Origin: Psychromonadaceae bacterium | GTDB taxonomy: Bacteria; Pseudomonadota; Gammaproteobacteria; Enterobacterales; CBDFNC01 | Assembly: GCA_965249895.1 (NCBI GenBank) | Contig: CBDFNC010000001.1 | Coordinates: 1,163,024 to 1,227,023, forward strand | Reading direction: 5' to 3' | Length of the DNA: 64,000 nucleotides | Part shown: positions 15,361 through 45,631 of the stretch, piece after piece | How positions within the stretch are numbered: position 1 is the stretch's first letter | Layout of the letters: every line of letters begins with the position of its first letter | Notes under the pieces: generated by a model | Told to the model about the DNA's origin: nothing | Seen by the model: the letters and a program-made list of their open reading frames with translations, nothing else | The model's database searches: none | Translations under genes and position numbers: made by a program

Positions 15361-15435
<75 letters not shown>

Positions 15436-17918: not shown

Positions 17919-17965
17919 GATAATTTAAAACAGACCGGACCTCTACTCGTTACCAGGAAGGATTT

Positions 17966-25144: not shown

Positions 25145-25831
25145 CTATCTCAAGCAGCTCCACAGGCGCTCAAACTCTCGACTGAACTTTCCAAGCAAAT
25201 CTTTGTTGTCGGTCACCAGGATATTTTCCTGGTTATATTTGCTGGCGCTGCGGGTCCAGTTAAACGAGCCGTTAAGCAGTTGTTTACCATCGAAGATTGC
25301 AAACTTGTGGTGCATATGGGCATCGGTTCTGTCCACCACAACCGGCACCCCTTTTTCAGTCAGAGCATATACGTCTGAGCCTTTGTCATTACGTTTATCA
25401 TTGTCGCTGATAATACGTACATTCACTCCACGCTGGTGGGCGCTGAACAAGGCGTCGGATAGCTGGTTATCGGAAATGGTAAATACGCACACGTCGATGC
25501 TGTTATGGGCGTTATTACACAGGCTGAGGATCCGTTGCTGGCAATCAGTGCCCGGACTAAAGCAGGCGTCAGCATCCACGCTTTCGGTAGCCGAGTTTTT
25601 ATCCAGGGTTTTAACCAGGTTTTCCAGCCACTTGATGGCGCGAAACTGCTCTTCGCTAAAGTCTCCCTGCTCCAGCAAGAGTGAAAAGGCCCGGTTGCGG
25701 ACAAAACTTATCTTATCTCTCTGGCCACTTAAGTTTTGGCCAAGCTCTGCTACCGCGACTTTTTCATCCTGAGATAGTTTCCTGTCTTCAAAGCTGCGAA
25801 TTAGCAGCTGCTCTATATCACTCTGTTGCAT
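25145..25831 (-). CDS. PLD-family (single HKD motif) nuclease-like protein
   Basis: HKD motif HMHHKFAIFDGKQLLNGSFNWTRSA (HxK...D...GSxN). 228 aa. Overlaps the stop of the upstream 1670-aa gene by 14 nt. Confidence 0.8.
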   Translation of the reverse strand: MQQSDIEQLLIRSFEDRKLSQDEKVAVAELGQNLSGQRDKISFVRNRAFSLLLEQGDFSEEQFRAIKWLENLVKTLDKNSATESVDADACFSPGTDCQQRILSLCNNAHNSIDVCVFTISDNQLSDALFSAHQRGVNVRIISDNDKRNDKGSDVYALTEKGVPVVVDRTDAHMHHKFAIFDGKQLLNGSFNWTRSASKYNQENILVTDNKDLLGKFSREFERLWSCLR

Positions 25832-28800
25832 CGGACTGCTCCTTGTTCAACGATATGCTCAACGATGACTTGCTCTTGCTGCCAGCGCGCTTAAATCTAT
25901 ATCTGGTTTGGCCCAGGGTATCGTTTATTTCCACCAGGTTAGCGTTAACATCCAGCAGCTGACTCACGGCTTTTAAGGTGACATCACCATCACCTCCCAG
26001 GGTATTGTGTTTAACAAAATCTGCCTTGATTTGCTGCCAGCGTTCGCTTTCCTGCTCTGTTTTATTGCCGCGAATTTCCGCCAGCTTTAACAGGTTTTCT
26101 TCGGCGTTGGCCCCCAGCATCTGAGCTTCTCCCAAATAATGGTCCGCAATCAGCTGCATCAACTCCTCCTGGTTCATCACAGAGGAGACTTTTTCCGCCA
26201 TCTTGTTCATATTGCGATAGCTACCCTGGAGCTTAAAGGGGGGCTCGGTGCGATATTTATCCGCCTGAGCGGCGGAGGCTATGTAGGCCAGGTTAACGCC
26301 AAGCACCACACTTTGGATCTCCAGCAATTTCTGTAATACACCTGTGACTTCGTTGAGCTCGGCTGCGCTGTAGCCATATTCCATTTCACTGGAGTCCACC
26401 TGGCCACCTTTGGCGATATCCACCAGTTTGTAGAAGTCGTCCTGTGAGCGAGTGGCCAGGGGGGCCAGCACCGCATTGGAAGTCATGGCGTTTTCCAGGT
26501 AGCTAAGGGCAAAGGCTTCATCCATACCCCCTAAGATATCCCCCAGGTTATATATATCGGCGCGGTTGGCGAGCATATCGGGGATCTGAAATGATTCCCC
26601 GGATTCCGTATAGGGGTTACCTGCCATTACCACGCAGAACTTTTTACCCCGCAAATCATAGGTCTTGGGTTGGCCCTGCCAGATCCCCTCGATACGACGG
26701 GTGCCGTCACACAGGGAGATGAACTTTTGTAAAAACTCAGGGTTGGTGTGCTGAATGTCATCCAGGTAGAGCATGACATTGTTGCTCATTTCCAGTCCCA
26801 GATTTAACTTGATAAGCTCCGAGCGGGCGGTGGCATTTGGCGCCTGCTCGGGATCCAGTGAGTCTACTTCGTGACCTATGGAGGGGCAGTTTATTTTCAT
26901 AAAAATCAGCCCCAGGCGACTGGCCACATATTCCATCAGAGTGGTTTTACCGTACCCGGGAGGTGAGATCATCATCAACAAACCCATCAAATCGGTGCGT
27001 TTGCTGTCGCCTACCGTGCCCATTTGTTTTGCCAGGTTGTCCCCTATCAGTGGCAAATAAGCGTCGTTGATCAACTTGTTACGCACAAAAGAGGAGAGGG
27101 GACGGGCCTTAAACTCTTCCAGTCTTAGTCCTGCTTTTTGCCTGCTAGTGACATCATGGCGTACCTGCAAGAAGCGTCGGTAATCTGGCAATACTTGCTG
27201 CTGGTGGCTTTCAAGGCGAAGCAAAAATTCGTCCAGGGACAGGGTCATGCTGCGGTCGTGGATCCGCTGATGGCTGCCCATCAGGCCGTTTACCTTCACT
27301 TCCAGCTCTACATCACATACCCGCCTGCTCAGTCTGCCCTCGCCGTTTATCAACGAAATAGCTTCGGGGATATAAGTGGTTAGCTGCTCCAGTTGTTGGT
27401 GGCTAGCGAGGGCCGACAGCCAGGCCTGGGTCAGGGACCAGCGGGCGCCGATTTGTCCCTTCAGTTTTTCCAGGGTGGCTTGATAGGAGTTCCAGGACTC
27501 CATATCCATCGCCCGTTTCAGCTCCTGGGCCAGCCGATCTGCGTATTTACTGGTGGAGAATACTATTGGGTCTTTGGCAAGCTCCAATACCAGGTAACTG
27601 GCCGCCAGCTTCACCTCTGTCTCGCTCAGGGGAAGTTCAAACTGCTCAACGAACTCGCTAAGGGCCGTGGTTATTTCATTCTCCAGCAATAACCTGGCGT
27701 TGCTGGAATTAAACAGGGCTTGCATGCGTAGTGCCGACTTAGCCCTTTCAATCCAGCTTTGCTGTTTAGGGGCTTGCTGACGGTTGGCCCAGTAAATGGC
27801 GGCAAATCCCCGGCACAAGGGCGGGAATTTCAGCACATCGGCGCTTCCCAGGGTGGGGAGCAGCTTTTTCAGGATAAGGGTTGCGTCGAAGTCGTGAATG
27901 CCGCGCTCATAACCTTCCTTATATCGGGGGGATGCGAAGTTTTTCACCAGTTCGTCGAGGGCCTGTTCATCACTGGCTGCCAGACGTAAAACCTCCATGG
28001 TTAAATCCTGCTCACCGGCTTGCGCCGCATCCAGGATCTGTTTCACCAGATATTCCGCGCGATATACGGTTTCTGTTTCCGACTCTATGGTTTGTTGCCA
28101 GTAAGGTTTTAGCTGGTTTAGTGCGGGATCTGTAGCGACTTCAAAAAAATCGGTGCCGGTTAAGTGGAACATCAGTTTATCCTGGCGGGGCAGCAGGGTT
28201 AGATCCAGTTCCTGGGTGTTGACGTTAAACCTGTGCCTGGGGCCCAGCTTAATGACATTACCACCTTCCTCGAAAATTTCGCTCTTATCCCGCAAGGCGC
28301 GCACGGCCTGATCTTTACTGGATTTAAGCCGGGCCTCGATATCGTCGGCCTTGACGCTGTCATCCAGCGCCATCAGTTGCTTGATTAAGTCGTGGAGTTT
28401 AAGCACCAGGGCGTCAGAGGCATAAAAGGTGTTAAGCTCATCCGCCTGGTTAAACCTCTGTACTCTGCGGCCAATACTCGACAGGATACGATCTGCGGCA
28501 TCTTTTAATGTACCGGCTTTACGCTGGCGTGCCTCCACCATACGCTGGCGATGGGTCTCAAAGGTTTCCACCACCTCTTCACGCTTGCCGAGAATATCGC
28601 TAAGGAACTGCTCCTGGTCGCTGAACTGGCTTTCCAGCTCTTCCAGTTGCACCAGCAGACGAGACAATTGATCATCGCTTTTTTCGGGTGTGGTGGCCAG
28701 GCCCAAGGCATTGGTGATGCTTTGGCTGAATAATTTAAACTGGGCAGAAAATTGTGCCAGTGCTTCCTTGCTGCCCAGGGATTGCTGCTTATGTTTAGCG

Positions 28801-30830
28801 TTGGCCTTGCTCTGGTTCAGTCGACCGTATATTTGTGAAATAGTATCGATAATACGGGTTCGCACAGTGGCGTCATGCACCTTAAGGGTAGCCATCAGCT
28901 CTGACAGCAGGTCCAGACCGGCGGACATGCTCTCCAGTTGCTCTTCTACTGGTGTCAGCTCGGCTACCGTGGTGACTTTCTCCTGTTCACGATTGAGTGA
29001 CTGTAGTTTTTTATCATAGGGCGCCAGGGACTTCTCATCCGCAAGGAAGTGCACGGTTTTCTGGCTTAACTCGTCTTCCTGCTCCGCCAGCGTAGCCTCC
29101 ATGACCTGCACTTTGACCGTGTCCATATAACGCATGGATTTAATGGTCAGCAGGTGGCCACGTTGTTTACGTAACGAGTCCAGACCTTCCACAAACTGCT
29201 CCGGCTTTTGCCAGCTGTCCGGACGCAGGCTTGCGATAATCTGGCTTTGTTGGGTTTGCGCCTGCGCCAATGCCTCTTCAGACTGGCTACGGATGGTTTC
29301 AACCTTTTCGAATTCATCCAGTACCAGCTCGGCGGTTTCCGCTACCTGATGCAGCAGTTTTTCGATGCCGCCGACCTGTTTGGCACCCATCCAATGGTAG
29401 GCGTCAAACATTCGACCGACCCGCTTGATCAGCTCCCCATAAAGTTTGCTGGACACTTGTTGATTGCCGATCATCTTAACTATGCTGTACAGCTCGGAAA
29501 TACCCCGCACCAATTCGGCATTGCCAATTTTACCGTAGAAGGAGGTTTTAGTGGGCTGCTCGCTGGCAAATTCATCGGAGCAATAGGGGGTTTGCCAGAT
29601 CTGCATAGGGTGAACCCGGGTAGGTTCGCTTTCCGCATAAAACAGCACTAAACGGCCGTCGTCCATATTGGCAAAGCCATGGCCAAACAAGGGATTGTCC
29701 AGGGCTTTATTCACCAGGTTATAGGAATAAAGGGCGACCTTACCTTCGACGGGTTCGTAAAAGGCGTACAGTACGTCTTCCCCATTGGGGCTTCTGGTGG
29801 TTCTTTTGTATTCCAGACCACTGATATCGTCATCGAAGGTTTTGTACTCGCCGCTTTGCAGGTAATAGCCACCAGGGAAGATAATGCCGTGGTTTTCAGG
29901 TAGTTGAATGCAGGAGTTGCCGATATTATCGATTCGCACCACGGCTTCGGTGTTTTTATTAAATACCAGGTAGCGCCACTGCTCTTCACGATAGGGGAGA
30001 ATTTTTAATAAGATTAATGCGCCGATCTCTGCAAAATAGAACTTGGCGTCATCCAGGGATTGGTTGTCATCAGAAACTGCTTCGCTGTATATACCCAGGC
30101 CGGAGCCGGTATTATTCTCCACCTTGATAGTCAGGTCGCCTTGGGTGGTTTCCACAAACAAGGTGTCGAGAATATTCATATGGGGGAAGCGACCGCTTAC
30201 TTCGTTTTCCCGGCTACATTCGGTCCACTCGAAATCGGTTTGGGGCGGTGGTTGTAGATCCCTGTCACCCCGGTTGTCCATATAGTCGAGGGTAAGACCG
30301 TCGCTATTGATACTCCAGCGGAACACCCGAATATCACTGAGGTTTTTACCTATTTGGAAACTGGCCAGCAGCTTGCCACCTCGTACAGTCAGGCGCAGCA
30401 GTTTAGTTTCTTTGTAATAGGTGTACAGTTCGATAAAGTCTTGCTCGAACCTGGGGTCTTTTAGGAAGGTATCCGCCAGCTCCAGGGCTCGAACTTCATA
30501 CCCTTCATCTGTTTGGTCCAGCCGGTAGAGGGCAAATACATCCTCCAGCTGAGTTTCTTTTTTTAAGCCGAGAAAAACGTTGTAACCAAACAGCAGATAG
30601 TTACCGGCACAGACGATATCTCGCGCAATACAATTGTTTTCGGTTCGCACCCGTACTCTGCCGAGTACCTGCATTTCCGCCCGGCCAAACTCGCTTAACC
30701 GCACCTGGTTTAAGGCGTTGGTTTTCTGCTCCAGCTCCTGGCTTTGTTGGTTTAAGCGATTGCGTATAACTTGATAGGCTCCGCCTGAGGCGACGGCTTC
30801 TGAATCCTGGCTTGATGACTCTTCCAGCAT
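25818..30830 (-). CDS. 1670-aa coiled-coil protein with C-terminal MoxR/McrB/dynein-like AAA+ ATPase module
   Basis: Walker A ISPPGYGKTTL (about nt 26950-26975), Walker B VMLYLDDIQ and sensor VVMAGNPY. It has an N-terminal ~500-aa beta-rich region and ~700 aa of heptad-rich helix. No named family recalled. Confidence 0.8.
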   Translation of the reverse strand: MLEESSSQDSEAVASGGAYQVIRNRLNQQSQELEQKTNALNQVRLSEFGRAEMQVLGRVRVRTENNCIARDIVCAGNYLLFGYNVFLGLKKETQLEDVFALYRLDQTDEGYEVRALELADTFLKDPRFEQDFIELYTYYKETKLLRLTVRGGKLLASFQIGKNLSDIRVFRWSINSDGLTLDYMDNRGDRDLQPPPQTDFEWTECSRENEVSGRFPHMNILDTLFVETTQGDLTIKVENNTGSGLGIYSEAVSDDNQSLDDAKFYFAEIGALILLKILPYREEQWRYLVFNKNTEAVVRIDNIGNSCIQLPENHGIIFPGGYYLQSGEYKTFDDDISGLEYKRTTRSPNGEDVLYAFYEPVEGKVALYSYNLVNKALDNPLFGHGFANMDDGRLVLFYAESEPTRVHPMQIWQTPYCSDEFASEQPTKTSFYGKIGNAELVRGISELYSIVKMIGNQQVSSKLYGELIKRVGRMFDAYHWMGAKQVGGIEKLLHQVAETAELVLDEFEKVETIRSQSEEALAQAQTQQSQIIASLRPDSWQKPEQFVEGLDSLRKQRGHLLTIKSMRYMDTVKVQVMEATLAEQEDELSQKTVHFLADEKSLAPYDKKLQSLNREQEKVTTVAELTPVEEQLESMSAGLDLLSELMATLKVHDATVRTRIIDTISQIYGRLNQSKANAKHKQQSLGSKEALAQFSAQFKLFSQSITNALGLATTPEKSDDQLSRLLVQLEELESQFSDQEQFLSDILGKREEVVETFETHRQRMVEARQRKAGTLKDAADRILSSIGRRVQRFNQADELNTFYASDALVLKLHDLIKQLMALDDSVKADDIEARLKSSKDQAVRALRDKSEIFEEGGNVIKLGPRHRFNVNTQELDLTLLPRQDKLMFHLTGTDFFEVATDPALNQLKPYWQQTIESETETVYRAEYLVKQILDAAQAGEQDLTMEVLRLAASDEQALDELVKNFASPRYKEGYERGIHDFDATLILKKLLPTLGSADVLKFPPLCRGFAAIYWANRQQAPKQQSWIERAKSALRMQALFNSSNARLLLENEITTALSEFVEQFELPLSETEVKLAASYLVLELAKDPIVFSTSKYADRLAQELKRAMDMESWNSYQATLEKLKGQIGARWSLTQAWLSALASHQQLEQLTTYIPEAISLINGEGRLSRRVCDVELEVKVNGLMGSHQRIHDRSMTLSLDEFLLRLESHQQQVLPDYRRFLQVRHDVTSRQKAGLRLEEFKARPLSSFVRNKLINDAYLPLIGDNLAKQMGTVGDSKRTDLMGLLMMISPPGYGKTTLMEYVASRLGLIFMKINCPSIGHEVDSLDPEQAPNATARSELIKLNLGLEMSNNVMLYLDDIQHTNPEFLQKFISLCDGTRRIEGIWQGQPKTYDLRGKKFCVVMAGNPYTESGESFQIPDMLANRADIYNLGDILGGMDEAFALSYLENAMTSNAVLAPLATRSQDDFYKLVDIAKGGQVDSSEMEYGYSAAELNEVTGVLQKLLEIQSVVLGVNLAYIASAAQADKYRTEPPFKLQGSYRNMNKMAEKVSSVMNQEELMQLIADHYLGEAQMLGANAEENLLKLAEIRGNKTEQESERWQQIKADFVKHNTLGGDGDVTLKAVSQLLDVNANLVEINDTLGQTRYRFKRAGSKSKSSLSISLNKEQSDATE

Positions 30831-30849
30831 TGTTCTTCCTTATATCCCG

Positions 30850-30871
30850 GCAAACTCGGCGCCGAGTTTGC
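30850..30871. promoter_or_regulatory. perfect 22-bp palindrome between the flotillin and giant ATPase genes
   Basis: gcaaactcggcgccgagtttgc, 20 nt upstream of the giant-gene ATG, with no T-run following. Confidence 0.5.
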
Positions 30872-30904
30872 TGGGGTTAATGGGGTAAAAAGTCAGCTAG
30901 CGAA

Positions 30905-33097
30905 TTAGCTGGAAGTGGTTTCACCGTTAAGCTTGGTGGTTTTGCTGTCTTTATCGAGCAGCTCACCTAAGATATCGGCTGGACTTCTGTCACCTTCTTT
31001 ACCGCCCAGGAATTTATTTAACATGGCATGTACCGCAGGACTTTTCTCCACCAGGCCATTGATGGACTTACCCACTGTGAGAGATTTCACCAGGGAATTA
31101 AAGTAGTCCCCCTGGCCGCCCACAATATCGATATTGGCGTTTTTCAGTGCTGCAGCCAGGACGTCGGCTTGTTCAACGGCAATATGTTTATTGGCTTCGA
31201 TGGAAAGTACGGCTTGCTCGAACTCTTTTTCCAGTTTCATACGGAACTCTTCGTGTTCGCGAGAATCTGCCGTCATGGTGGCCATGGCATTAAATTTCTC
31301 GATAAGGCCTTCGGCTTCCGCTTTAAACTTGGCGTTAACCACTTCCGCTTGCGCCATACCTTGTTCACGTTCGGCTTTTGCCTGGGCCAGGCCAATTTGC
31401 TCGTCACCGTGAGCCTGCGCCGCTAGTTTCTGCTCCAACACTTTGGCTTGTGCCAGGCCTTGCTCTCTGTCTGCCTTGGCTTTGGCTAAACCAATTTGCT
31501 CATCACCCGTGGCCTGGGCGCTTAGCTTCTCTTCCAGTACCTTAGCTTGAGCAAGACCTTCTTTTTCGTTGGCAATGGCATGTGCTTCGATAATTTTCGC
31601 CTTGGCCAGACCTTGTTGCTCGTCACCCTGAGCCTGAGCCAGCATCTTCTGCTCCAGCACTTTAGCCTCGGCTATCCCTTGTTTTTCCAGTGCGTCGGCC
31701 TGGGCTTCTTTGACGCGGGCATCGGCGAGGCCTGGTGCAGATTGCTCGGCTTCGATACCTTCAGCCATCTTCTTCTTGGCATCTGCTTGTTTGGCCGCGG
31801 CTTCCAGCTCGGCCTGAGCCATAATATTTATTTTTTGCGCCTCGTGCTTGGCTTTGATTTCATCGGCTTCGGCTTGCTTGACCTGTTTCACAAGCTCTTC
31901 TTCCGCATCAGCTTCGGCTTGCAGGACGGTGACTTGCTTGGCCCGTTCGGCTTTTGATATTTCGCGGACTTCTTTAATCAGCTCTTCCTCTTCGGCGACG
32001 GTTTTTTCAACGGCAATACGTTCACGAATGACATTGGCGATCTCTTTTTTCTCGCCTTCTAGCGCCCGTTCTTTTTCGATTTCTTGAAGCTCTACCTCGC
32101 GTTCGCGGGATACCACTTCCAGATCTTTGGCTCTTTGTACCCGCTCTTGCTCTACGCCGATGGCGCGCTCCCGGCCTTGCTGTGCCACTTCGATTTCACG
32201 CTGCATATTTTCCTGCTGGATGGCGATTTCCTGCTCCGTGGCGATGCGGGCGGTTTCGGATTTTAACCGTTCTTCTTCTGCTACTTTTTTCGCTTCAGCC
32301 TCTTCCCTGGCATTTATGGTGGCGATTTCTCGTTGCTGTTTGGCAAGGGCCTCTTTTTCCTGGCGATCAAGCGCCAGCAGGTGCTCCTGCGTTTCTACGT
32401 CTTTTTTCTTGATGGCGCGCTGCTCATCACGCACCAGGTTATTGGTTTTGATATTTTCCTGGGCGGTGACTTCGGTAATCTTACGAATACCTTCGGCATC
32501 CATAATATTGTTGGGATCCAGGGCGTTTTTCGGTGTTTGCTCCAGATAATCTATGGCTACGTCTTCCAGCACATAACCGTTCAGGTCGTCACCGATAGTC
32601 TTGACGATTTCATCACGGAAAAAGGCGCGCTCTTCAAACAGCTGCAGGAAGTTCATTTTCTTGCCCACTGTTTTCAGTGCTTCGGAAAATTTGGCGTTAA
32701 ATAGTTCATTCACCGCTGTTTTATCGGAGGCGCGCTCGGCGCCGATAGATTTAGCCACCTGTAACACGTCTTCTGCGGTTTCGTTTACCCGTAAATAAAA
32801 GGCTACTGTAATGTCGGCGCGAATATTATCGGCGCAGATCAGGCCATCATTGCTTCTTCGATCCACTTCCAGGGTGATCAGGGAAATACGCATAAACTCT
32901 TTCTTGTGAATAATGGGCAGTACCAATGAACCGGTAAACTTCACTTTCGGAGTGGGGGACATGTCATTCACAATCAGGGCTGTACCCTGAGGGACCTTGG
33001 TATAAAAAGCTTTGAATAGTCCGGCTATGCCCAGCAAGACAAGAAAAAAGATGCCAATACCAAAGACGATTGGTAGTAATGCAGCTACATCTATCAT
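30905..33097 (-). CDS. flotillin / SPFH (band 7) family protein, YqiK/FloT-like
   Basis: N-terminal TM helix, an SPFH domain, and a ~400-aa Ala/Glu/Gln-rich coiled coil with internal repeats (GLAQAKVLEQKLAAQAHGDEQIG). Confidence 0.85.
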   Translation of the reverse strand: MIDVAALLPIVFGIGIFFLVLLGIAGLFKAFYTKVPQGTALIVNDMSPTPKVKFTGSLVLPIIHKKEFMRISLITLEVDRRSNDGLICADNIRADITVAFYLRVNETAEDVLQVAKSIGAERASDKTAVNELFNAKFSEALKTVGKKMNFLQLFEERAFFRDEIVKTIGDDLNGYVLEDVAIDYLEQTPKNALDPNNIMDAEGIRKITEVTAQENIKTNNLVRDEQRAIKKKDVETQEHLLALDRQEKEALAKQQREIATINAREEAEAKKVAEEERLKSETARIATEQEIAIQQENMQREIEVAQQGRERAIGVEQERVQRAKDLEVVSREREVELQEIEKERALEGEKKEIANVIRERIAVEKTVAEEEELIKEVREISKAERAKQVTVLQAEADAEEELVKQVKQAEADEIKAKHEAQKINIMAQAELEAAAKQADAKKKMAEGIEAEQSAPGLADARVKEAQADALEKQGIAEAKVLEQKMLAQAQGDEQQGLAKAKIIEAHAIANEKEGLAQAKVLEEKLSAQATGDEQIGLAKAKADREQGLAQAKVLEQKLAAQAHGDEQIGLAQAKAEREQGMAQAEVVNAKFKAEAEGLIEKFNAMATMTADSREHEEFRMKLEKEFEQAVLSIEANKHIAVEQADVLAAALKNANIDIVGGQGDYFNSLVKSLTVGKSINGLVEKSPAVHAMLNKFLGGKEGDRSPADILGELLDKDSKTTKLNGETTSS

Positions 33098-33179
33098 GTG
33101 TAAAATCCTTTATTTTTAAATCGTCGAAGGGCGTATTGCCCATAGTCTTTGTGCTGACAGTTATTGTTATTTGGTAGTT

Positions 33180-33815
33180 TTAAGGTTTTAAGAAATCTGC
33201 TTCAGAGATGACCAAATATGCGTTATCGGTAGCCTGATACTTGAGTAGCACCAGCTTGTCGCCTCGAACCAGCTGATTGGGGCTGTCTGCCCTTACTTTT
33301 AAGATCAACCCGGCGCCACCATCATCCAGCCTGGCCTCTCCAAACTCTTCATTCACTTCCCCGGTCCTCAAGGTCACTGTGCGGCCAACCAAATCGTGTT
33401 TACCGGTTGCCGAAGTTTTACGAAAAAGGGTTTTTAACGGGTTTATAAAAATTGAGGTGATAGGGCAGGCCAGGATAAAAGCGACCACTATAGTGAGGCA
33501 CCCAATCAGGGCGCTTAACCAGCCAGGTGGAATAAATGACCAAAAAAGATAAACAGTAAAGTAACTGAGCAGCCAGCCAAACAGGGTGATAAAGGTAAAT
33601 ACTATGGTAGTGGGAATGCCGTCCAGCTTTAATTTCATCAGCAGGCCGGTGAAATTGATGCCTGAGTTATCCACATCAAATTCGGTATCAAAGTCCAGAA
33701 TGTCAATATCTAGCAAACCTAACGAGGCTACGATCCAATAAAGGCAAAACAGGCCTAAGAATATGGTGTAGATCAGGGTTGGAAAAGAACTGATATTGGC
33801 CACAAAAGCATTCAT
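33180..33815 (-). CDS. NfeD-like (YqiJ-type) membrane protein with C-terminal OB-fold
   Basis: Four predicted TM helices and a C-terminal beta-rich OB-like domain (LVGRTVTLRTGEV...GLILKVRA). This is the canonical partner position upstream of a flotillin gene. Confidence 0.75.
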   Translation of the reverse strand: MNAFVANISSFPTLIYTIFLGLFCLYWIVASLGLLDIDILDFDTEFDVDNSGINFTGLLMKLKLDGIPTTIVFTFITLFGWLLSYFTVYLFWSFIPPGWLSALIGCLTIVVAFILACPITSIFINPLKTLFRKTSATGKHDLVGRTVTLRTGEVNEEFGEARLDDGGAGLILKVRADSPNQLVRGDKLVLLKYQATDNAYLVISEADFLKP

Positions 33816-34032: not shown

Positions 34033-34314
34033 ATGAATATGATTTCTTCGTTAAAATCCAGGTTTGATCGCGTTAAAGCAAATTTTTTCACCACGCCGGA
34101 AGGCGGAGTGATCAGCCCATTTAAAGCGATCGTCGGCGCATTAGTTTTGACTGGATTGTTTTTATTAATGCTGCCCCTGCTTATGGTCTTGTTTGTCTTT
34201 CAGCTGGGGTTGGTTTTGGTAGGTTTAGTTGCGGCCCTATTTATGGGGTCACGGAAACCTAACGTTAGGTGGGAAAATGGAGAGAAAGTGATTAACCCTC
34301 AAGTGGGTTCTTAA
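34033..34314 (+). CDS. small hypothetical membrane protein (93 aa)
   Basis: One long hydrophobic stretch (LVLTGLFLLMLPLLMVLFVFQLGLVLVGLVAALF). No family assigned. Confidence 0.4.
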   Translation: MNMISSLKSRFDRVKANFFTTPEGGVISPFKAIVGALVLTGLFLLMLPLLMVLFVFQLGLVLVGLVAALFMGSRKPNVRWENGEKVINPQVGS

Positions 34315-34388
34315 GTTGTAGAAGTTGAGTTTTGTAGTTTTTTTAAGCATATCCTAAGTTTTTTTTGATGGTCATTGCTCGTCACCAT

Positions 34389-34815
34389 CCCTTTAACCCA
34401 CTGTACCCTGCAGTGGGTTTTTTTTATCTTCCAAAAGGGAAACTCGCAGGCTCGTGAACAACTATGCCCTTTAACCCAGAGTACCCTGCAGTGGGTTTTT
34501 TTTATCTTCCAAAAGGGAAACTCGCAGGCTCGTGAACAACTATGCCCTTTAACCCAGAGTACCCTGCAGTGGGTTTTTTTTATCTTCCAAAAGGGAAACT
34601 CGCAGGCTCGTGAACAACTATGCCCTTTAGCCCACTGTACCCTGCAGTGGGCTTTTTTTATCTTCCAAAAGGGAAACTCGCAGGCTCGTGAACAACTATG
34701 CCCTTTAACCCACTGTACCCTGCAGTGGGTTTTTTTTTATCTTCGAAAAGGGAAACTCGCAGGCTCGTGAACAACTATGCCCTTTAACCCACTGTACCCT
34801 GCTGATTTTTTTGGA
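34389..34815 (+). repeat. 78-bp tandem array (5 full + 1 partial unit), each unit a stem-loop plus an intrinsic-terminator hairpin; candidate tandem sRNA genes
   Basis: Unit: ccctttaa-CCCACTG-taccctg-CAGTGGG-T8-atcttcc-AAAGGG-(31 nt)-CCCTTT. Units start at 34389, 34467, 34545, 34623, 34701 and 34780. Unit 4 has a compensatory change that extends the stem (gcccactg...cagtgggc). Confidence 0.8.
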
Positions 34816-34893
34816 ACCAATCATAACAAAGGATGTTGGGTAACAATTGCCGGGTTGGCTGTAGGAGCGGATGCCTCTCTATAAGTGAAGAGG

Positions 34894-35012
34894 GCGAAGC
34901 CTGTGCCGGCAAGGTTCGCCGAACGCGCATCCATGCATTTAACATCTCATTCCTGAGATGGGTTCGGCGCCTACCAATCCTGCTGGAGCTGTTACCCAGA
35001 TTTGATAGGTAC
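34894..35012. repeat. dispersed ~120-bp structured repeat, copy 1
   Basis: About 85% identical to 45632..45750. Nested hairpins GCCGAAC...CATCTCA-ttcc-TGAGATG...GTTCGGC. Confidence 0.75.
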
Positions 35013-35248
35013 CGTTTTTTCTATCCTTCAAAATGAAAGCTTGCGGCTCGTGAATCGCTACGTCTTTACCCGTTATTTTTTACCGTTTTTTTTAAACATT
35101 AAAAAGAACTGAGTGAAAGTCCTCGTATTCTCAACTGCTAGCGTAAAGATCAAATAAATATAAAATTTAGATCACGCAATGGGAGATCCGAGCTGGTATA
35201 GCTACCACTAATAATGCTATTGATGATAATGTTTTTAGTTCGCTGTAA

Positions 35249-36739
35249 TTGATTCTTAAATGCAGAATTGTTTGTGGGGATATACGTTGGATGCAGATAA
35301 AACGTATTAAGCTCGGCATAGTGCTTTTTCCTATAGGGCTGTTATTAATTATTTTGTTAAACCCTTTAGGTTTACGAACCGCGGCCGAAAAGCACAGTGA
35401 AGACCTTGCTATCAGCTTTTATGCACCTTGGCATCCTGCCGGTGCACGACAAGATATAACAGTCATATTGCTTGACGATGCTTTCTTGCAACAATATTCC
35501 AGAAAGTATCCAGTTCCTTATCGTGACTTATCACATTTACTTAAGGTGATTGGCCATTTTCAACCAAAGGCTGTGTTTTTTGATTTGCTGCAGCATTATG
35601 AACACTCCAAAGGGGTAGAGCGTTGGCTGCGTCGGCTCAAGCAAGCTCCTTACCCCGTATATCTCGCCAGTAACGTTTCCTATGATACTGAAGCGGTAAT
35701 GAAGGACCCTTTGTCTTTGCGCAGCAGACTCAACAATGTGGCCGAATTTACTGCAATAAGCTGGAGTGGACAGCAACATTATTATCCACTGTTTGTTGAC
35801 TGGAACCAGCAAGAGTTACCAACAGCCGCCATGTCGTTATATCAGACTTGGTGCAGGGAAACGCCATCTCGTTGTAAAAACAAAATTCAGCAAATACAAG
35901 ATGTTAAGCTGTTTTCTGAACCTATGATTGTTCGTTGGAGTAATCAATATGATCAGCGGCAAGCTGTTTTTTTGCGGTTGAGCCAAGCTTGTCAGAATAT
36001 CGAAAGAAGTAAGCTGGCACAATTATGGGCAGCCATCAGATCGCACTTAGAATATGGGTTTACTTCCTACGGCAAGCGTCAGGAGACAAACCGTCATCCT
36101 TGCCCTCCTGTACTGGCCGTTTCTGCGACCAAATTGTTTGCCGCGGGTTCGCTGGCATCTAAAGATCTTGTCTATGCACTTAAAGACCGAATGGTTCTCG
36201 TCGGTTATAACCTGCAAGGTGCTCCTGATATGGTTAGATCCCCGGTTAACGGCTCGTTATCTGGGGTGTTTTACCATGCCGTCGCGCTGGACAACCTGAT
36301 TAACTTTGGTGATAAGTACTGGCATGTATCCCCGTCTATCGAAGGGTTTGGCGTTAATCTCAGTGATGTTTTAGAGGGCCTGCTTCAGGCCCTTGTCTTG
36401 CTTATCGTAACCCTTTATCGCTATCAAAACGATGGAAGTGAGCTTGGTACTGCAGATGAGGATAAAGTACCTCGTATTTGGCTTATTTCATTGTTTTCAT
36501 TATTGCTTGGAGCCCTGTGTTTGGTTTGGGTCTCGCACTATATATTCAGCCTTGGTCCGGTGAATTGGTACGTATTTTTAATTATCGTCGCAATGGCGGC
36601 GCCTACCCTGCTTGGCAACCTCATCAAAGGCAGGTTAACCCGCTTTTTTGATGTGTTGAAGAAATATCGTATTACATGGATTAGGGCACTGAAGAAGCGC
36701 ACAGCAAAACTTTTTGAAAATTCAACCAGAGTGGAGTGA
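35249..36739 (+). CDS. CHASE2 domain membrane protein without a recognisable output domain
   Basis: The N-terminal TM helix, the periplasmic region DITVILLDDAFLQQYSRKYPVPYRDLSHLLKVIGHFQPKAVFFDLL and the C-terminal TM helices fit CHASE2 architecture. Confidence 0.6.
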   Translation: MILKCRIVCGDIRWMQIKRIKLGIVLFPIGLLLIILLNPLGLRTAAEKHSEDLAISFYAPWHPAGARQDITVILLDDAFLQQYSRKYPVPYRDLSHLLKVIGHFQPKAVFFDLLQHYEHSKGVERWLRRLKQAPYPVYLASNVSYDTEAVMKDPLSLRSRLNNVAEFTAISWSGQQHYYPLFVDWNQQELPTAAMSLYQTWCRETPSRCKNKIQQIQDVKLFSEPMIVRWSNQYDQRQAVFLRLSQACQNIERSKLAQLWAAIRSHLEYGFTSYGKRQETNRHPCPPVLAVSATKLFAAGSLASKDLVYALKDRMVLVGYNLQGAPDMVRSPVNGSLSGVFYHAVALDNLINFGDKYWHVSPSIEGFGVNLSDVLEGLLQALVLLIVTLYRYQNDGSELGTADEDKVPRIWLISLFSLLLGALCLVWVSHYIFSLGPVNWYVFLIIVAMAAPTLLGNLIKGRLTRFFDVLKKYRITWIRALKKRTAKLFENSTRVE

Positions 36740-37116
36740 ACATGAATAGCTTTAAAAAAGTGATGATATTGACTTGGCTAGTTCTTTTTTCAGCAGTTGC
36801 CTTGGCGCAAGAAAAAGTTCGAATTCTCGACTTTTTAATGGATGAAGTCGAAATTTGCGACAAGAGTGAGGCTTGTCGAGATGTAGACAGGAGCAAATTA
36901 CCTGATCCAACCAAAGTTCCATTAGCGGTAAAACGATTCGATGAAGGGCAAGGAATGGTGATGTTTGAGCACAATGGGTTGGAGCACTGGATCCATCAGT
37001 CAGAAGTAAAATTAAATGTAACCGCTTTGTCTACTGTCATTTGCACCACTCAAGATGTATCACGAAAAAGCGATGCGCAAACGTTTGGTATACATGGTCT
37101 TGGTGAGGGGTGCTAA
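36736..37116 (+). CDS. small secreted hypothetical protein (126 aa)
   Basis: Signal peptide MNMNSFKKVMILTWLVLFSAVALAQE. Four-nt overlap with the CHASE2 gene stop. Confidence 0.5.
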   Translation: MNMNSFKKVMILTWLVLFSAVALAQEKVRILDFLMDEVEICDKSEACRDVDRSKLPDPTKVPLAVKRFDEGQGMVMFEHNGLEHWIHQSEVKLNVTALSTVICTTQDVSRKSDAQTFGIHGLGEGC

Positions 37117-38727
37117 GTGATGAAGTGGATAATAGTTGTTTTTATGATGTTGCTAGGCGGTTGCGCAACGAACGACTTGATGCCCCTGGTGGGTAGCACT
37201 TATGAATCAGTAGACGGGACCTATCTGAAGCAGCAAGTTTCAGGAGCTGGGCATAACCCTACCGGCAAAAAAAAGGAAGACAAAGGGGGATACAATTCAT
37301 TGCTAAACAGCCGGGCAGCGATTGACCAGGATCTCATTGATATTGACTACCTGGATAAATATCTCAACGGAATATTAGCTAAGCTTTTAGCCCAATGGCC
37401 TTTAGCTGTAGATCAGAAAGTACGCGTAATGGTAACTACTGAACGCAGCTTCAATGCGAGAGCGACCCTTAACGACATCGTATTATCTATGGGGATCCTT
37501 GGTGATGTGGAGTCGGAAGATGAATTAGCCTTTGTTATCGCTCATGAGTTGTCCCATATACTGCTTAGACACCAAGATACAAATGACTACTTTGCAAAAC
37601 AAAGTGTGCTTGTGAGTAAAGCTGCAAATGCCGCTATGTTAACCGCCGCTGTCGATGATTTAGGGGTGCAGCGAAACGGGGAAAAATTTCAGCTAATTGA
37701 CAAAGATGAAGCATCAACTCAAGGGAAAATGGAGGATGCGTATCGAGCAAGTTTAGCGGTGAATCGACTGAGCCGAGATGTGATTAATTCTGCCATGGCC
37801 CGCCGGGATGAGAATGAAGCCGATTTGTTGGGGGTGGATCTAATGGTAAAGGCGGGTTACAGCGCGTTTGGTTATGCCAAGGTACTGGAAAGGTTAGAAA
37901 GTAGCCAAGTCTTCACCAAGCAACAGTTAAAACAGAAAAAGGCCGAATTCCAGGAGGTCGTTACTGTCTTGTCTAGCAAGAAGATCCCTCTGGAAGGAAA
38001 TAGCTTGAAAAGTGTCGTTTATCTTGCGGCGAATGAATCTGCCACACAAATGTTACAAAAGCTTTCGGAGCGCCATGGGTCTCCGGAAGATAGAAAGGGA
38101 GATTTGGCCCATTATGTTAAACGAGAGTACCGCAAGGAACGGAAAAGACAGGTAAAAACCAAGGAGTTGACTCAGAATCTGAGAACTGGAGCGGGGGCGT
38201 ACATGCTAGATAAATACTGGAAAGCTTCGGAGGCGTTGCGGGCAGTTGAACATGGCGCTATTAAACAAGCGGAAAAACTCGCTCGTGAAGCTGTATCTGG
38301 CCCGACTTCGGGGCATGCGTACCCGAGACTTGCTTTTTATTCTGTTCGTCGCGCCCAGGGAAATGAGAAAAAAGCGATTTCAAACCTCAATATGATTAAC
38401 CGCTGGGATATGGCTTCGGCGCAAACCTTTGCACTGGCCGCACAGGCTTACCGACGTTCAGGCATGTTGACTGAAGCCCTCGATGTACTCGGTAAGGCGG
38501 AGAGCGCCTTAGGTACAAAAGACCCCATATACTCAGAGCTGATAGCAGTATATAAGGCGAAAGGTGATGGTGTGAACATGGCTAGAACACTCACGGAATG
38601 TCGTAAAGTTAAAGAAACTAATATAGTTGCTCAATGCCATCAGGCTGCTGGGCAACCCATTCCACAAAAGAGTTTGATAGAAGGAAATAATTTGCTGAAG
38701 TATATTCCCGACTTTGTAAATTTATAG
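37117..38727 (+). CDS. M48 family zinc metallopeptidase lipoprotein with TPR-like C-terminal region
   Basis: Lipobox LLGGC, HExxH FVIAHELSHILLRH and a downstream E (NEADLLG). 536 aa. Confidence 0.8.
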   Translation: MMKWIIVVFMMLLGGCATNDLMPLVGSTYESVDGTYLKQQVSGAGHNPTGKKKEDKGGYNSLLNSRAAIDQDLIDIDYLDKYLNGILAKLLAQWPLAVDQKVRVMVTTERSFNARATLNDIVLSMGILGDVESEDELAFVIAHELSHILLRHQDTNDYFAKQSVLVSKAANAAMLTAAVDDLGVQRNGEKFQLIDKDEASTQGKMEDAYRASLAVNRLSRDVINSAMARRDENEADLLGVDLMVKAGYSAFGYAKVLERLESSQVFTKQQLKQKKAEFQEVVTVLSSKKIPLEGNSLKSVVYLAANESATQMLQKLSERHGSPEDRKGDLAHYVKREYRKERKRQVKTKELTQNLRTGAGAYMLDKYWKASEALRAVEHGAIKQAEKLAREAVSGPTSGHAYPRLAFYSVRRAQGNEKKAISNLNMINRWDMASAQTFALAAQAYRRSGMLTEALDVLGKAESALGTKDPIYSELIAVYKAKGDGVNMARTLTECRKVKETNIVAQCHQAAGQPIPQKSLIEGNNLLKYIPDFVNL

Positions 38728-45257: not shown

Positions 45258-45490
45258 GTATATACCCAAACTACTTGGAAATGCAGATTCAGAGCTCAGG
45301 CGGGATGTCAGAACAAGGCGCAGCGAGCAGGGAATGGCATTCCCTTTTCAAGCGCTGCAACGCAGTGCTGACTTTCTGGCTGAACTCCCTTCGGGCAAGG
45401 CGAGAAGCAACCCTCTTCGGCTTTATGCCTTGAACCCGATCACTTCTCGACTTGCTGATCCCCGCATTGCCAAGTAGCTTGGGTATACAC
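45258..45490. mobile_element. MITE-like non-autonomous element with 27-bp imperfect terminal inverted repeats
   Basis: Left TIR gtatatacccaaactacttggaaatgc (45258-45284). Right TIR gcattgccaagtagcttgggtatacac (45464-45490). 24 of 27 positions are complementary. No ORF inside. Confidence 0.45.
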
Positions 45491-45631
45491 TTCATTAACA
45501 TGGACGTTATTACTTGTGTGGTGTTTATGATGTTTAATCACAAACGTATCACCGTTGGTTTTATTGGAACCCATCAAATAACGGGAATAAGGGTAACAAT
45601 TGTGGCGGTCTTTGTGGAGGAGATGCAATCT

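What the first reader, a model, noticed from the sequence alone, without database searches (positions are those of the whole stretch)
34389..34815. Tandem array of 5.4 near-identical 78-bp units, each with a stem-loop plus a textbook intrinsic terminator: candidate multicopy sRNA locus
Seen in sequence:
- Each unit has AAAGGG-(31 nt)-CCCTTT, then aa, then CCCACTG-taccctg-CAGTGGG followed by T8-9.
- The units are not CRISPR-like, because the inter-hairpin segments are identical.
- Unit 4 has paired changes (a to g and t to c) that extend the terminator stem by one base pair, while units 2 and 3 have a weakened stem. This pattern is consistent with selection on RNA structure.
- A degenerate extra unit follows at about 35013-35100.

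Established knowledge: tandem multicopy sRNAs exist (for example, as I recall, Listeria LhrC1-5 and Pseudomonas PrrF1/2), and each copy ends in its own terminator.
Basis: partly seen in the sequence, partly recalled or inferred. Interest (0 to 1): 0.6.

Follow-up and report, generated by a model that had tools for sequence, protein, structure and literature searches.

The report
Tandem array of terminator-bearing 78-bp repeats
A real, lineage-specific run of five near-identical 78-bp repeats, each carrying a transcription terminator, lies behind an orphan small gene in a genome unusually prone to such duplications; it is most likely a recent minisatellite and not a proven family of small regulatory RNAs.

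Summary
The array is real: 34389-34802, period 78, 5.3 copies, 97% matches. Its 39-nt core is exact five times; 0 are expected by chance. Three units carry strong plus-strand intrinsic terminators, two are weakened, and the last is truncated.

New anatomy:
- The "degenerate extra unit" (35014-35098) is the array's old terminal unit.
- It was split off by a ~200-nt structured, dispersed MITE-like element (34803-35013). That element has a second copy at 45556-45754 and a third on another contig.

No Rfam family matches. The unit is absent from the rest of the window, from 85 related loci, and from the genome, metagenome, viral, plasmid and phage collections. The upstream 93-aa ORF is an orphan, and homologous CHASE2-M48 operons elsewhere have no array.

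Evidence for the sRNA reading is thin:
- The per-unit promoter candidate is weak (5.6 bits) and overlaps the previous terminator.
- Hairpin 1 is no more stable than shuffled sequence.
- Covariation is not significant.

The window holds four arrays of period >=50 bp, where 0.16 are expected (P~3e-5).

Verdict: most likely a recent minisatellite amplification of a terminator module, giving a terminator stack (0.5). A compact sibling-sRNA array remains possible (0.3). Only transcript mapping can decide.

The parts
34033..34314 (+). Orphan 93-aa ORF with a hydrophobic, membrane-like product. It has a good Shine-Dalgarno (AAGAGG) before the ATG. The array begins 75 nt after its stop codon, and the first terminator copy serves as its terminator.
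   Evidence: ORF list. No Pfam or PADLOC hit. It matches only itself among 5.8 billion protein clusters.
34389..34802 (+). Tandem array of 5.3 copies of a 78-bp unit. Unit sequence: CCCTTTAACCCACTGTACCCTGCAGTGGG-T8-ATCTTCCAAAAGGGAAACTCGCAGGCTCGTGAACAACTATG.
   Evidence: TRF. Exact 39-mer present five times. Interior units differ at 0-4 positions.
34395..34425 (+). Terminator copy 1: AACCCACTG/CAGTGGGTT hairpin plus T8. It abuts unique sequence on its left and is probably the 93-aa ORF's own terminator.
   Evidence: Terminator scan. Inverted repeat I2. The sequence to its left is not significantly unit-like, p=0.17.
34473..34581 (+). Terminator copies 2 and 3 (34473-34503 and 34551-34581). Both carry CCCAGAG, which gives a 2x2 internal mismatch and a weakened hairpin. 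The two units are identical to each other.
   Evidence: Unit fold -16.9 kcal/mol, z -0.33. Not called by the terminator scan. u1-u2 differ at 0 positions.
34629..34659 (+). Terminator copy 4. The basal pair has changed from A-U to G-C (a compensated double change). T-run is T7.
   Evidence: -25.9 kcal/mol, z -3.1; pair 58/80.
34707..34738 (+). Terminator copy 5, canonical hairpin with T9. The extra T breaks the 131-aa mechanical ORF that runs through the array.
34785..34802 (+). Truncated sixth terminator copy (CCCTTTAACCCACTGTACCCTGC). It is cut off by the inserted element.
   Evidence: Sequence. Excision alignment.
34803..35013 (+). Inserted ~200-nt structured, dispersed (MITE-like) element 'E'. 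It is not part of the repeat family. Boundaries are uncertain by about 5 nt.
   Evidence: MFE -74.6 kcal/mol, z -2.8. Paralogue at 45556-45754, 86% identical over 120 nt. Consensus fold has 49 pairs, 3 of them with double changes. A third copy is fused to the 3' end of beta-lactamase-family protein P0011 on a 3.0-Mb contig. Deleting ~34805-35007 restores a canonical unit junction.
35014..35098 (+). Old, diverged terminal unit of the array, about 60% identical overall. The 5' half is conserved (TTTTTCTATCCTTCAAAATGAAAGCTTGC-GGCTCGTGAA). The terminator hairpin has decayed to T-runs.
   Evidence: Alignment significant, 0 of 1000 shuffles. No stable fold, z +0.35.
35220..35249 (+). Best sigma-70-like site of the whole intergenic region (TTGATG-18-TGTAAT), just upstream of the CHASE2 gene. 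It is probably the independent promoter of the downstream operon.
   Evidence: PWM scan, 7.5 bits, top 0.03% of window positions.
35291..38727 (+). Downstream CHASE2 (482 aa) - 126 aa - M48 peptidase (536 aa) operon. Context only. The same operon occurs elsewhere without any array.
   Evidence: Pfam. Homologous operons in a Desulforhopalus MAG and in Agarivorans have no upstream tandem repeat.

Best explanation
The feature is an intergenic minisatellite. A 78-bp segment has recently been amplified in tandem. The segment runs from the intrinsic terminator of an orphan 93-aa ORF through about 47 nt of downstream sequence, up to the next copy of the same terminator.

Inferred history: an older array of at least two units existed. 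Its last unit (35014-35098) has decayed. A small mobile structured element inserted into the 3' arm or T-run of the neighbouring unit's terminator. The remaining module was then expanded, or homogenised, to five near-identical copies. The likely mechanism is replication slippage or unequal recombination between the >=23-bp direct repeats CCCTTTAACCCACTGTACCCTGC. Hairpins and T-runs favour that process.

Shown: the array, its plus-strand terminators, the insertion, the absence of homologues, and the genome's excess of such arrays.

Inferred: the DNA-level mechanism, and the functional consequence. On the plus strand the array is a stack of Rho-independent terminators that ends transcription of the 93-aa ORF. 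It insulates the CHASE2-M48 operon, which has its own promoter-like site at 35220-35249. Because the first terminator is intact and no convincing promoter lies inside the units, most copies are probably transcribed little. The array is then near-neutral and variable in copy number, not a set of selected genes.
For: - Interior copies differ at only 0-4 positions, while the edge unit is ~60% identical. This pattern is typical of recently expanded or homogenised tandem arrays.
- The left boundary of the array falls exactly at the start of the terminator of the upstream ORF, and the sequence to its left is not unit-like.
- The window has four arrays with period >=50 bp (78, 87, 197 and 51 bp). The baseline is 2.6 per Mb in 1.56 Mb of other gammaproteobacterial loci, so 0.16 are expected; Poisson P = 2.7e-5.
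- Two of the other arrays plainly duplicate gene starts or junctions, which are non-adaptive-looking products of the same process.
- No strong per-unit promoter on either strand.
- Hairpin 1 is no more stable than shuffles, and covariation is not significant.
- A mobile element has been tolerated inside the array.
- No homologue of the unit was found anywhere.
Against: - One compensated A-U>G-C change in a terminator stem is unlikely by pure chance, at roughly the 1% level by my estimate. It could reflect selection, although hairpin-templated mutation also explains it.
- The long uninterrupted U8-9 tails after an 11-bp stem look like the Hfq-binding 3' ends of sRNAs.
- A -10-like TATCTT with the key A2 and T6 sits exactly where a transcript would start at the base of hairpin 1. 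The diverged terminal unit retains TATCCT and the first ~30 nt of the putative RNA better than it retains the rest.
- The persistence of an old unit shows that the tandem state predates the recent expansion.
- Copy-number variation between strains, which this model predicts, could not be checked. The only related contig ends 540 bp before the array.
Confidence: 0.5

Rival explanations
1. A compact array of sibling trans-acting sRNA genes. Each unit would be transcribed from a weak promoter that overlaps the preceding terminator (-35 TGTACC in the terminator loop, -10 TATCTT after the T-run). This would give a ~70-nt RNA made of a 5' hairpin presenting the loop AAACUCGCAGGCUCGUGAACAACUAUG, followed by a Rho-independent terminator with a U8-9 tail, as in Hfq-type sRNAs. 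Gene dosage would be raised by amplification.
For: - Strong plus-strand terminators with long U tails.
- A repeated sigma-70-like match, TGTACC-17-TATCTT, in the top 0.17% of window positions, placing the start site at the base of hairpin 1.
- GGCTCGTGAA and the 5' 40 nt are conserved in the old unit.
- One compensated base pair.
- Tandem sibling sRNAs are an established arrangement (PMC4211561).
Against: - The promoter match is weak, at 7 of 12 consensus positions. It was not called by the standard scan, and it is degraded to AGTACC after the two weakened terminators.
- The 78-bp unit leaves no room for a separate promoter. Known tandem sRNA units are roughly 180 bp or more; the PrrF spacer alone is 95 nt.
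- No Rfam family matches.
- No target in the window beats shuffled-loop controls.
- Hairpin 1 is not significantly stable.
- No conservation outside this genome.
- The array tolerated a mobile-element insertion, and its terminal unit has decayed.
Confidence: 0.3
2. A 3'-UTR-derived, co-transcribed RNA array, like CcsR1-4 / 'cuckoo' RNAs. Transcription from the 93-aa ORF promoter would read through leaky terminators, and RNase E would cut the AU-rich U8-AUCUUCC linkers to release unit RNAs.
For: - A small ORF in the same orientation sits directly upstream.
- The linkers are AU-rich.
- Two terminators are weakened.
- There is a precedent for tandem sRNAs processed from the 3' UTR of a small ORF (PMC8034643).
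Against: - The first terminator is fully intact: 11-bp stem plus U8. Read-through into the array should therefore be low.
- The ORF is not DUF1127, and the loops lack the CCUCCUCCC motif (sequence).
- CcsR units do not each carry a terminator.
Confidence: 0.07
3. A cis-regulatory attenuator series for the downstream CHASE2-M48 operon. Examples would be a six-codon mini-ORF (GTG AAC AAC TAT GCC CTT TAA) ending at the foot of each terminator, or a small ligand-binding hairpin.
For: - Each unit contains the mini-ORF, with its stop codon overlapping the first bases of the terminator stem (frame +1).
- There is a weak, terminator-driven Rfam resemblance to leader motifs: Phe_leader 21.4 bits, E 0.81.
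Against: - The start codon is GTG with only an AGG four nt upstream, and no alternative antiterminator pairing is evident.
- Homologous CHASE2-M48 operons have no such leader.
- A 200-nt mobile element, a decayed unit and a separate promoter-like site lie between the array and the operon.
- The copies are too recent to be an evolved multi-step switch.
Confidence: 0.05
4. A DNA-level protein-binding array, such as a centromere-like or iteron-like site, or a dispersed REP/MITE cluster.
For: Each unit has a 9-bp perfect inverted repeat with a 7-bp spacer. Tandem IR-bearing repeats serve as partition sites on some plasmids, for example F sopC (own knowledge).
Against: - No partition, replication or transposase genes are nearby.
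- There are no dispersed copies in the window and none in the plasmid or phage collections.
- The inverted repeat plus one-sided T-run is a strand-specific terminator signature.
Confidence: 0.04
5. A protein-coding repeat (the 131-aa ORF at 34375-34770, 26 aa per unit), or a type III toxin-antitoxin antitoxin RNA array (ToxI-like).
For: The period of 78 equals 26 codons, and one frame is open across five units. The 5.3 direct repeats recall ToxI's 5.5 repeats (own knowledge).
Against: Against the coding reading:
- TTG start with no Shine-Dalgarno.
- All inter-unit substitutions would be non-synonymous.
- A T8>T9 slip breaks the frame.
- No Pfam hit.
- The ORF was not called as a protein in the source genome, and no homologue exists.

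Against the toxin-antitoxin reading:
- No endoribonuclease gene follows.
- Units are 78 nt, not 34-45 nt.
- Each unit has a terminator.
- No PADLOC hit.
Confidence: 0.02

Closest known systems
Bacterial intergenic minisatellites / VNTRs (for example mycobacterial MIRUs, 40-100-bp tandem repeats between genes; own knowledge)
   Same: Head-to-tail repeats tens of bp long in an intergenic region. Interior copies are near-identical and an edge copy has decayed. The origin is best explained by slippage or unequal recombination. There are several such loci in the same genome.
   Different: Each unit here carries a complete Rho-independent terminator, so amplification multiplies a functional transcription signal. 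There is no family of related loci: the unit is unique to this site in the window. Copy-number polymorphism is untested.
Tandem sibling sRNAs (PrrF1/PrrF2, OmrA/OmrB, AbcR1/2; LhrC1-4 from own knowledge)
   Same: Directly repeated short modules, each ending in its own intrinsic terminator. They are thought to arise by gene duplication (PMC4211561).
   Different: - Known cases have 2-5 copies.
- Known units are about 180 bp or more and include a recognisable promoter; the PrrF spacer is 95 nt.
- Their siblings are diverged (65-95% identity) and conserved across species.
- Here the unit is 78 bp, has no room for a separate promoter, is ~99% identical between copies, has no orthologues and matches no Rfam family.
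CcsR1-4 / 'cuckoo' RNAs downstream of the small DUF1127 ORF ccaF1 (Rhodobacter sphaeroides)
   Same: A small ORF is followed, in its 3' region, by several tandem homologous hairpin RNAs (PMC8034643).
   Different: - CcsR RNAs are co-transcribed and released by RNase E.
- They carry CCUCCUCCC loops, follow a DUF1127 protein, and are conserved in several alphaproteobacterial families.
- Here the ORF is an orphan without a Pfam domain, the loops are unrelated, and every unit has its own terminator.
Type III toxin-antitoxin antitoxin arrays (ToxI: 5.5 x 36-nt repeats upstream of toxN; own knowledge)
   Same: A non-integer number of direct RNA-like repeats in an island-like, defence-gene-rich region.
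   Different: - No toxin endoribonuclease gene lies downstream.
- The unit is twice as long.
- There is a terminator in every unit, not one after the array.
- No PADLOC or Rfam match.
Tandem intrinsic terminators (for example rrnB T1-T2; own knowledge)
   Same: Several Rho-independent terminators in series on one strand behind a gene, giving fail-safe termination and insulation of the next operon.
   Different: Known tandem terminators are two or three different hairpins. They are not five or six copies of an identical 78-bp repeat produced by recent amplification.

Membership tests
Any curated RNA family (Rfam 15: includes PrrF, OmrA-B, LhrC, Qrr, ToxI, leaders, riboswitches) | Match to the family covariance model at or above its gathering score | tested here: not met
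   The only gathering-level hit in the window is tRNA-Gly. At E<=10 the best hit in the array is anti-hemB at 27.7 bits against a gathering score of 49.5. All alignments are driven by the generic terminator hairpin plus U-run.
Tandem sibling sRNA genes | Each copy ends in its own Rho-independent terminator on the transcribed strand | tested here: met
   Three of six copies are called by the terminator scan, plus strand only. Two are weakened and one is truncated.
Tandem sibling sRNA genes | Each copy has its own promoter | tested here: inconclusive
   The best per-unit sigma-70 match is TGTACC-17-TATCTT at 5.6 bits, top 0.17% of positions, overlapping the previous terminator. None passes the 9-of-12 consensus scan. 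No sigma-54 or sigma-E pattern was seen by eye.
Tandem sibling sRNA genes | Discrete transcripts are expressed | not testable with these tools
   No transcriptome data are available for this unidentified organism.
Tandem sibling sRNA genes | Conservation of sequence and structure in related genomes, with covariation | tested here: not met
   - No exact core in the genome, metagenome or viral collections.
- No covariance-model hit in 85 loci totalling 1.56 Mb.
- No blastn hit in plasmids or phages.
- Within-array covariation is not significant, 33-35 of 500 shuffles.
- Caveat: the only close relative's contig stops before the locus.
CcsR / cuckoo 3'-UTR sRNA arrays | Adjacent DUF1127 small ORF and CCUCCUCCC loop motifs | tested here: not met
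   The 93-aa ORF has no Pfam domain and no homologues. The loops read AAACUCGCAGGCUCGUGAACAACUAUG.
Type III toxin-antitoxin (ToxIN-like) | Repeat array immediately followed by an endoribonuclease toxin gene, with a single terminator between them | tested here: not met
   Downstream lie a mobile element, a decayed unit and a CHASE2 sensor gene. There are no PADLOC hits for any neighbouring gene. A terminator is present in every unit.
CRISPR array | Repeats separated by unique spacers of similar length | tested here: not met
   The units abut head to tail and the whole 78 bp is repeated.
REP / BIME / MITE dispersed repeats | Many copies scattered in intergenic regions of the genome | tested here: not met
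   - Within the 64-kb window, model R1 with filters off finds only the seven array units; the next best hit is 12 bits, E 1.6.
- Self-blast finds no dispersed copy of the unit.
- The rest of the genome could not be scanned.
- By contrast, the inserted element E does meet this criterion.
Minisatellite / VNTR | Head-to-tail copies with near-identical interior units and diverged edge units | tested here: met
   Interior units differ at 0-4 positions. The terminal unit is ~60% identical yet significantly homologous.
Minisatellite / VNTR | Copy number varies between strains | not testable with these tools
   The 98%-identical metagenome contig L001 ends at window position 33845. No other strain is available.
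Intrinsic (Rho-independent) terminator | G+C-rich hairpin immediately followed by a U-run on the transcribed strand | tested here: met
   Hairpins of 11 pairs with 5-6 G-C pairs, followed by T7-T9, plus strand only.

The most novel reading that the evidence does not exclude
The array encodes five to six copies of a new ~70-nt sRNA in an ultra-compact head-to-tail architecture, where each unit's terminator DNA doubles as the next unit's promoter. It would be one of the highest-copy tandem sibling-sRNA loci known, in an uncharacterised deep-branching marine gammaproteobacterium. Copy number would be tuned by minisatellite expansion and contraction, giving an evolvable dosage knob for an RNA regulator.
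Probability: 0.2. Interest if true: 0.6.

Novelty: new member of a known kind. Interest (0 to 1): 0.3.

Why it matters
If it is only a minisatellite, its value is descriptive. It shows that a complete intrinsic terminator can be amplified into a five- or six-fold stack. It also shows that this uncharacterised gammaproteobacterial genome carries about 25-fold more long-period tandem duplications than its relatives, some of which duplicate gene starts. That points to an unusual replication or recombination regime worth studying genome-wide.

If the sRNA reading is right, the locus would show how sibling sRNA families are born. It would be caught at the stage of near-identical copies, in an unusually compact arrangement of overlapping promoters and terminators.

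Either way, the locus is a ready-made copy-number marker and a natural test bed for terminator read-through.

Tried and rejected
1. Rfam at gathering and at permissive thresholds gave only terminator-driven sub-threshold hits.
2. Exact-pattern scans for the unit core in genome contigs, metagenome contigs and viral contigs, and blastn against plasmids and phages, all came back empty. The same was true for element E's 31-mer and 24-mer.
3. Synteny route:
 - Exact look-ups of the flanking proteins failed.
 - The 98%-identical metagenome contig ends before the locus.
 - Genes to the right of the array have no counterpart from that strain.
 - Loci found with the ABC-F protein share almost no synteny.
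4. The idea that the array is a conserved leader of the CHASE2-M48 operon was rejected. Homologous operons have no array.
5. The idea that GCTCGT is invariant in all seven units and is presented in an alternative hairpin (GATGGT/ACCATC) in 'unit 0' was rejected. The 5' half of unit 0 is not significantly similar to the unit, p=0.17. Scores for u0 and u6 with model R1 are circular, because both were in the seed alignment.
6. Target prediction for the 27-nt loop within the window gave a best duplex of -25 kcal/mol. Eight shuffled loops reached -23.5 to -33.9, so this is uninformative.
7. Coding potential of the array ORF and of element E was rejected:
 - No Pfam hits.
 - The array frame is broken by the T9 run.
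 - Substitutions between the E copies are mostly non-synonymous (about 10 to 3 by eye).
8. CsrB-like sponge was rejected. There is one GGA per unit, located in a stem, against 9-25 GGA motifs in the Pseudoalteromonas Csr sRNAs (PMC11882849).
9. PADLOC on neighbouring genes found no defence-system match for the array's immediate neighbours.
Full report
**Observation**

The array exists as described. Tandem Repeats Finder reports 34389-34802 with period 78, 5.3 copies and 97% matches. The 39-nt core AAAGGGAAACTCGCAGGCTCGTGAACAACTATGCCCTTT occurs exactly five times, at 34434, 34512, 34590, 34668 and 34747. It occurs nowhere else in the window, and shuffles give 0 matches.

The second hairpin, with its T-run, is called as an intrinsic terminator on the plus strand at 34395, 34629 and 34707. 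Its full stem is AACCCACUGUA/UGCAGUGGGUU, 11 pairs. Nothing comparable is called on the minus strand.

- The loop is 27 nt, not 31.
- The a>g / t>c change replaces an existing A-U pair with G-C. It does not extend the stem.
- Two identical units carry CCCAGAG, which weakens the stem. The unit MFE is -16.9 kcal/mol with z -0.3, against -23.5 and -25.9 with z about -3 for intact units.
- The last terminator copy is truncated.
- The AAAGGG/CCCTTT hairpin is no more stable than shuffled sequence (-7.7 against -5.9 +/- 2.3 kcal/mol).

**Anatomy beyond the reported coordinates**

The array begins 75 nt after the stop codon of a 93-aa ORF (34033-34314, plus strand). This ORF has a good ribosome-binding site and a hydrophobic product. 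It has no Pfam or PADLOC hit and matches only itself among 5.8 billion protein clusters.

The first repeat copy is the terminator of that ORF. The sequence to its left is not significantly unit-like (p=0.17).

The array ends at 34802, where a foreign segment of about 200 nt starts. That segment (34803-35013):
- folds strongly (-74.6 kcal/mol, z -2.8);
- has a paralogue at 45556-45754, 86% identical over 120 nt, and is the only dispersed repeat in the window;
- has three base pairs that change on both sides between the two copies.

A third copy of the segment was found in an unexpected way. I translated the open frames of the array and of the element and searched the large protein collection. 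The single hit was P0011, a 507-aa beta-lactamase-family protein on a different 3.0-Mb contig. Its last ~60 residues are a translated copy of the element. The element is therefore dispersed and mobile (MITE-like), and it is not part of the repeat family.

Deleting about 34805-35007 rejoins the truncated terminator to a T-run and to CTATCCTTCAAAATGAAAGCTTGC-GGCTCGTGAA, which is a canonical unit-to-unit junction. Its 5' half is significantly homologous (32/40 identities; 0 of 1000 shuffles as good). Its terminator has decayed.

**What it is not**

- No Rfam family reaches threshold. The sub-threshold hits (anti-hemB, rli32, Phe_leader, Qrr and others) align only the generic terminator.
- It is not a CRISPR array, because there are no spacers.
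- It is not coding. The start is TTG with no Shine-Dalgarno, all differences between units would be non-synonymous, the frame is broken by a T8>T9 slip, and there is no family match.
- It is not a type III antitoxin array. No toxin gene follows, the unit is 78 nt, there is a terminator in every unit, and there is no PADLOC hit.
- It is not a dispersed REP/MITE within the window. A covariance model of the seven units (R1), run with filters off, finds only those units.
- It is not a conserved leader of the downstream CHASE2 / ~130-aa / M48-peptidase operon. That operon recurs in a Desulforhopalus MAG and in Agarivorans without any repeat upstream.

**Distribution**

The unit core is absent from all of the following:
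- the species-representative genome collection, the JGI metagenomes and IMG/VR;
- PLSDB plasmids and INPHARED phages;
- 85 fetched loci, searched with model R1.

The host is a poorly sampled gammaproteobacterium. Its very conserved ABC-F protein is at best 87% identical to anything in 185,579 species representatives. Its local proteins are singleton clusters.

One metagenome contig (L001) is 98% identical over 8.7 kb, but it stops at window position 33845, before the locus. Genes to the right of the array have no counterpart from that strain. Comparative evidence is therefore unobtainable here.

**Testing the sRNA reading**

A multicopy sRNA locus needs a promoter in each unit. The standard scan finds none in the array. 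A position-weight scan finds one repeated weak candidate, TGTACC-17-TATCTT:
- it scores 5.6 bits, in the top 0.17% of window positions;
- its -35 lies in the loop of the previous terminator;
- its predicted start falls at the base of hairpin 1;
- it is further degraded after the two weakened terminators.

With an intact first terminator and no internal promoters, the later units would be almost silent.

Pair counting over the seven units gives 84% paired cells and two doubly changed pairs, but 33-35 of 500 shuffles do as well.

A duplex scan of the loop against the whole window finds nothing better than shuffled loops.

Known tandem sibling sRNAs (PrrF1/2 with a 95-nt spacer, OmrA/B, AbcR1/2) have much longer units with separate promoters, and they are conserved between species (PMC4211561). 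The CcsR1-4 precedent, tandem sRNAs cut from the 3' UTR of a small ORF, shares the gene order. It does not share the DUF1127 protein or the loop motif, and CcsR units do not each carry a terminator (PMC8034643).

Some points remain in favour of the sRNA reading:
- the long U8-9 tails;
- the one compensated pair;
- the better preservation of the putative -10 and of the first ~30 nt in the old unit.

**Genomic background**

The window holds four tandem arrays with period >=50 bp:

| Coordinates | Period | Copies | Matches |
|---|---|---|---|
| 34389-34802 | 78 bp | 5.3 | 97% |
| 7370-8090 | 197 bp | 3.7 | 99% |
| 3183-3397 | 87 bp | 2.5 | 89% |
| 59693-59795 | 51 bp | 2 | 78% |

Running the same TRF settings on 1.56 Mb of other gammaproteobacterial loci gives 2.6 such arrays per Mb. 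That predicts 0.16 in 64 kb (Poisson P for four or more = 2.7e-5).

The 197-bp array duplicates a promoter-like region plus the first ~35 codons of a CobB/CbiA-like gene. The 87-bp array duplicates a gene junction. Both look like by-products of a duplication-prone replication or recombination regime, not evolved devices.

**Conclusion**

The most economical account (confidence about 0.5) is a minisatellite. An old array of at least two units lay behind the orphan ORF. It was hit by a small mobile element. The module between two copies of CCCTTTAACCCACTGTACCCTGC was then recently expanded to five near-identical copies by slippage or unequal recombination, which the hairpin and T-runs would favour.

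Its direct consequence is a stack of plus-strand terminators between the orphan ORF and the CHASE2-M48 operon. That operon has its own promoter-like site at 35220-35249.

The rival, a compact sibling-sRNA array with overlapping promoter and terminator, cannot be excluded (about 0.3). It would be the more interesting outcome.

Minor rivals are unlikely:
- processing from the 3' UTR;
- an attenuator with the six-codon mini-ORF GTG-AAC-AAC-TAT-GCC-CTT-TAA;
- a DNA-binding array;
- a coding repeat;
- a ToxI-like array.

Transcript 5'/3'-end mapping and a whole-genome scan are the decisive missing data.

Noticed in passing
window 34803-35013 and 45556-45754; third copy inside protein P0011 (other contig): A ~190-200-nt structured dispersed element (starts TTGGAACC, ends GGT[A/C]CC). 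It folds at -74.6 kcal/mol (z -2.8). The two copies are 86% identical over 120 nt, with 3 doubly changed base pairs and a 15-nt hairpin indel. A third copy is fused to the 3' end of a beta-lactamase-family gene on a 3.0-Mb contig. It has no Rfam match and is absent from the JGI metagenome and IMG/VR collections. It is a candidate new MITE or small RNA family.
   Followed up: partly
window 45262-45486: A 225-nt segment closed by an 18-bp inverted repeat (TATACCCAAACTACTTGG / CCAAGTAGCTTGGGTATA). It folds at -94.3 kcal/mol, z -4.2, with 0 of 200 shuffles as good. It has no Rfam match and is not repeated in the window. It lies directly beside copy 2 of the dispersed element.
   Followed up: partly
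window 7370-8090: A 197-bp x 3.7 tandem array at 99% identity. It duplicates a promoter-like CATATAAT region plus the first ~35 codons (P-loop GKTTVTAALAR) of the 434-aa CobB/CbiA-like ORF 7986-9290. This creates several truncated gene starts upstream of the real one.
   Followed up: partly
window 3183-3397 and 59693-59795: Two further long-period arrays. The first is 87 bp x 2.5 (89%) and duplicates the start/junction of the minus-strand ORF 2469-3185. The second is 51 bp x 2 (78%), each copy with a CTTTGG..CCAAAG hairpin, upstream of ORF 59834. Together with the others they give a ~25-fold excess of minisatellites over related genomes.
   Followed up: partly
window 45780-45915: A remnant of the C-terminus of a GGDEF diguanylate cyclase (..TISIGAKVIHPDKDITQDQVYILADKALYLAKEKRNTVIAGD*) with no upstream part of the gene. 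The 5' portion appears to have been replaced by the two structured elements.
   Followed up: no
window 25145-33815 (minus strand); L001: An operon of a 211-aa protein, a 730-aa ORF, a 1670-aa DUF3686+DUF7902+AAA ATPase and a 228-aa PLD-like protein. In the 98%-identical metagenome contig the 730-aa ORF is split into a 205-aa Band_7 gene and a 532-aa gene. There is no PADLOC match. Similarity to L001 ends at window 25159; beyond its PLD-like gene L001 carries a sigma-54 activator gene.
   Followed up: no
window 12531-20797: tRNA-Gly(TCC) at 15361-15435 is flanked by an SF1 helicase with a C-terminal REase domain (928 aa; PADLOC MkoC/MkoA/Hhe-like) and a 943-aa UvrD/GajB-like helicase with topoisomerase-type zinc ribbons. 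The setting is island-like and defence-flavoured.
   Followed up: no
window 35291-38727; L002 6001-9465; L004 6001-9688: A conserved three-gene operon of CHASE2 sensor (~480-550 aa), a ~130-aa protein and an M48 peptidase (~535 aa). It is shared at 37-48% identity with a Desulforhopalus MAG and with Agarivorans. It looks like an uncharacterised membrane signalling/protease module.
   Followed up: partly
window 34284-34314: The last codons of the 93-aa ORF (AACCCTCAAGTGGGTTCTTAA) resemble the loop plus 3' arm of the repeat's terminator (ACCCTGCAGTGGGTT). Local alignment p~0.006, not corrected for multiple tests. This is possibly a vestige of a still older unit.
   Followed up: partly
window 34456-34476 and the same offset in each unit: Each unit contains a six-codon mini-ORF, GTG AAC AAC TAT GCC CTT TAA (VNNYAL). 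Its stop codon overlaps the first bases of the terminator stem. The Shine-Dalgarno is weak (AGG). It is probably fortuitous.
   Followed up: no
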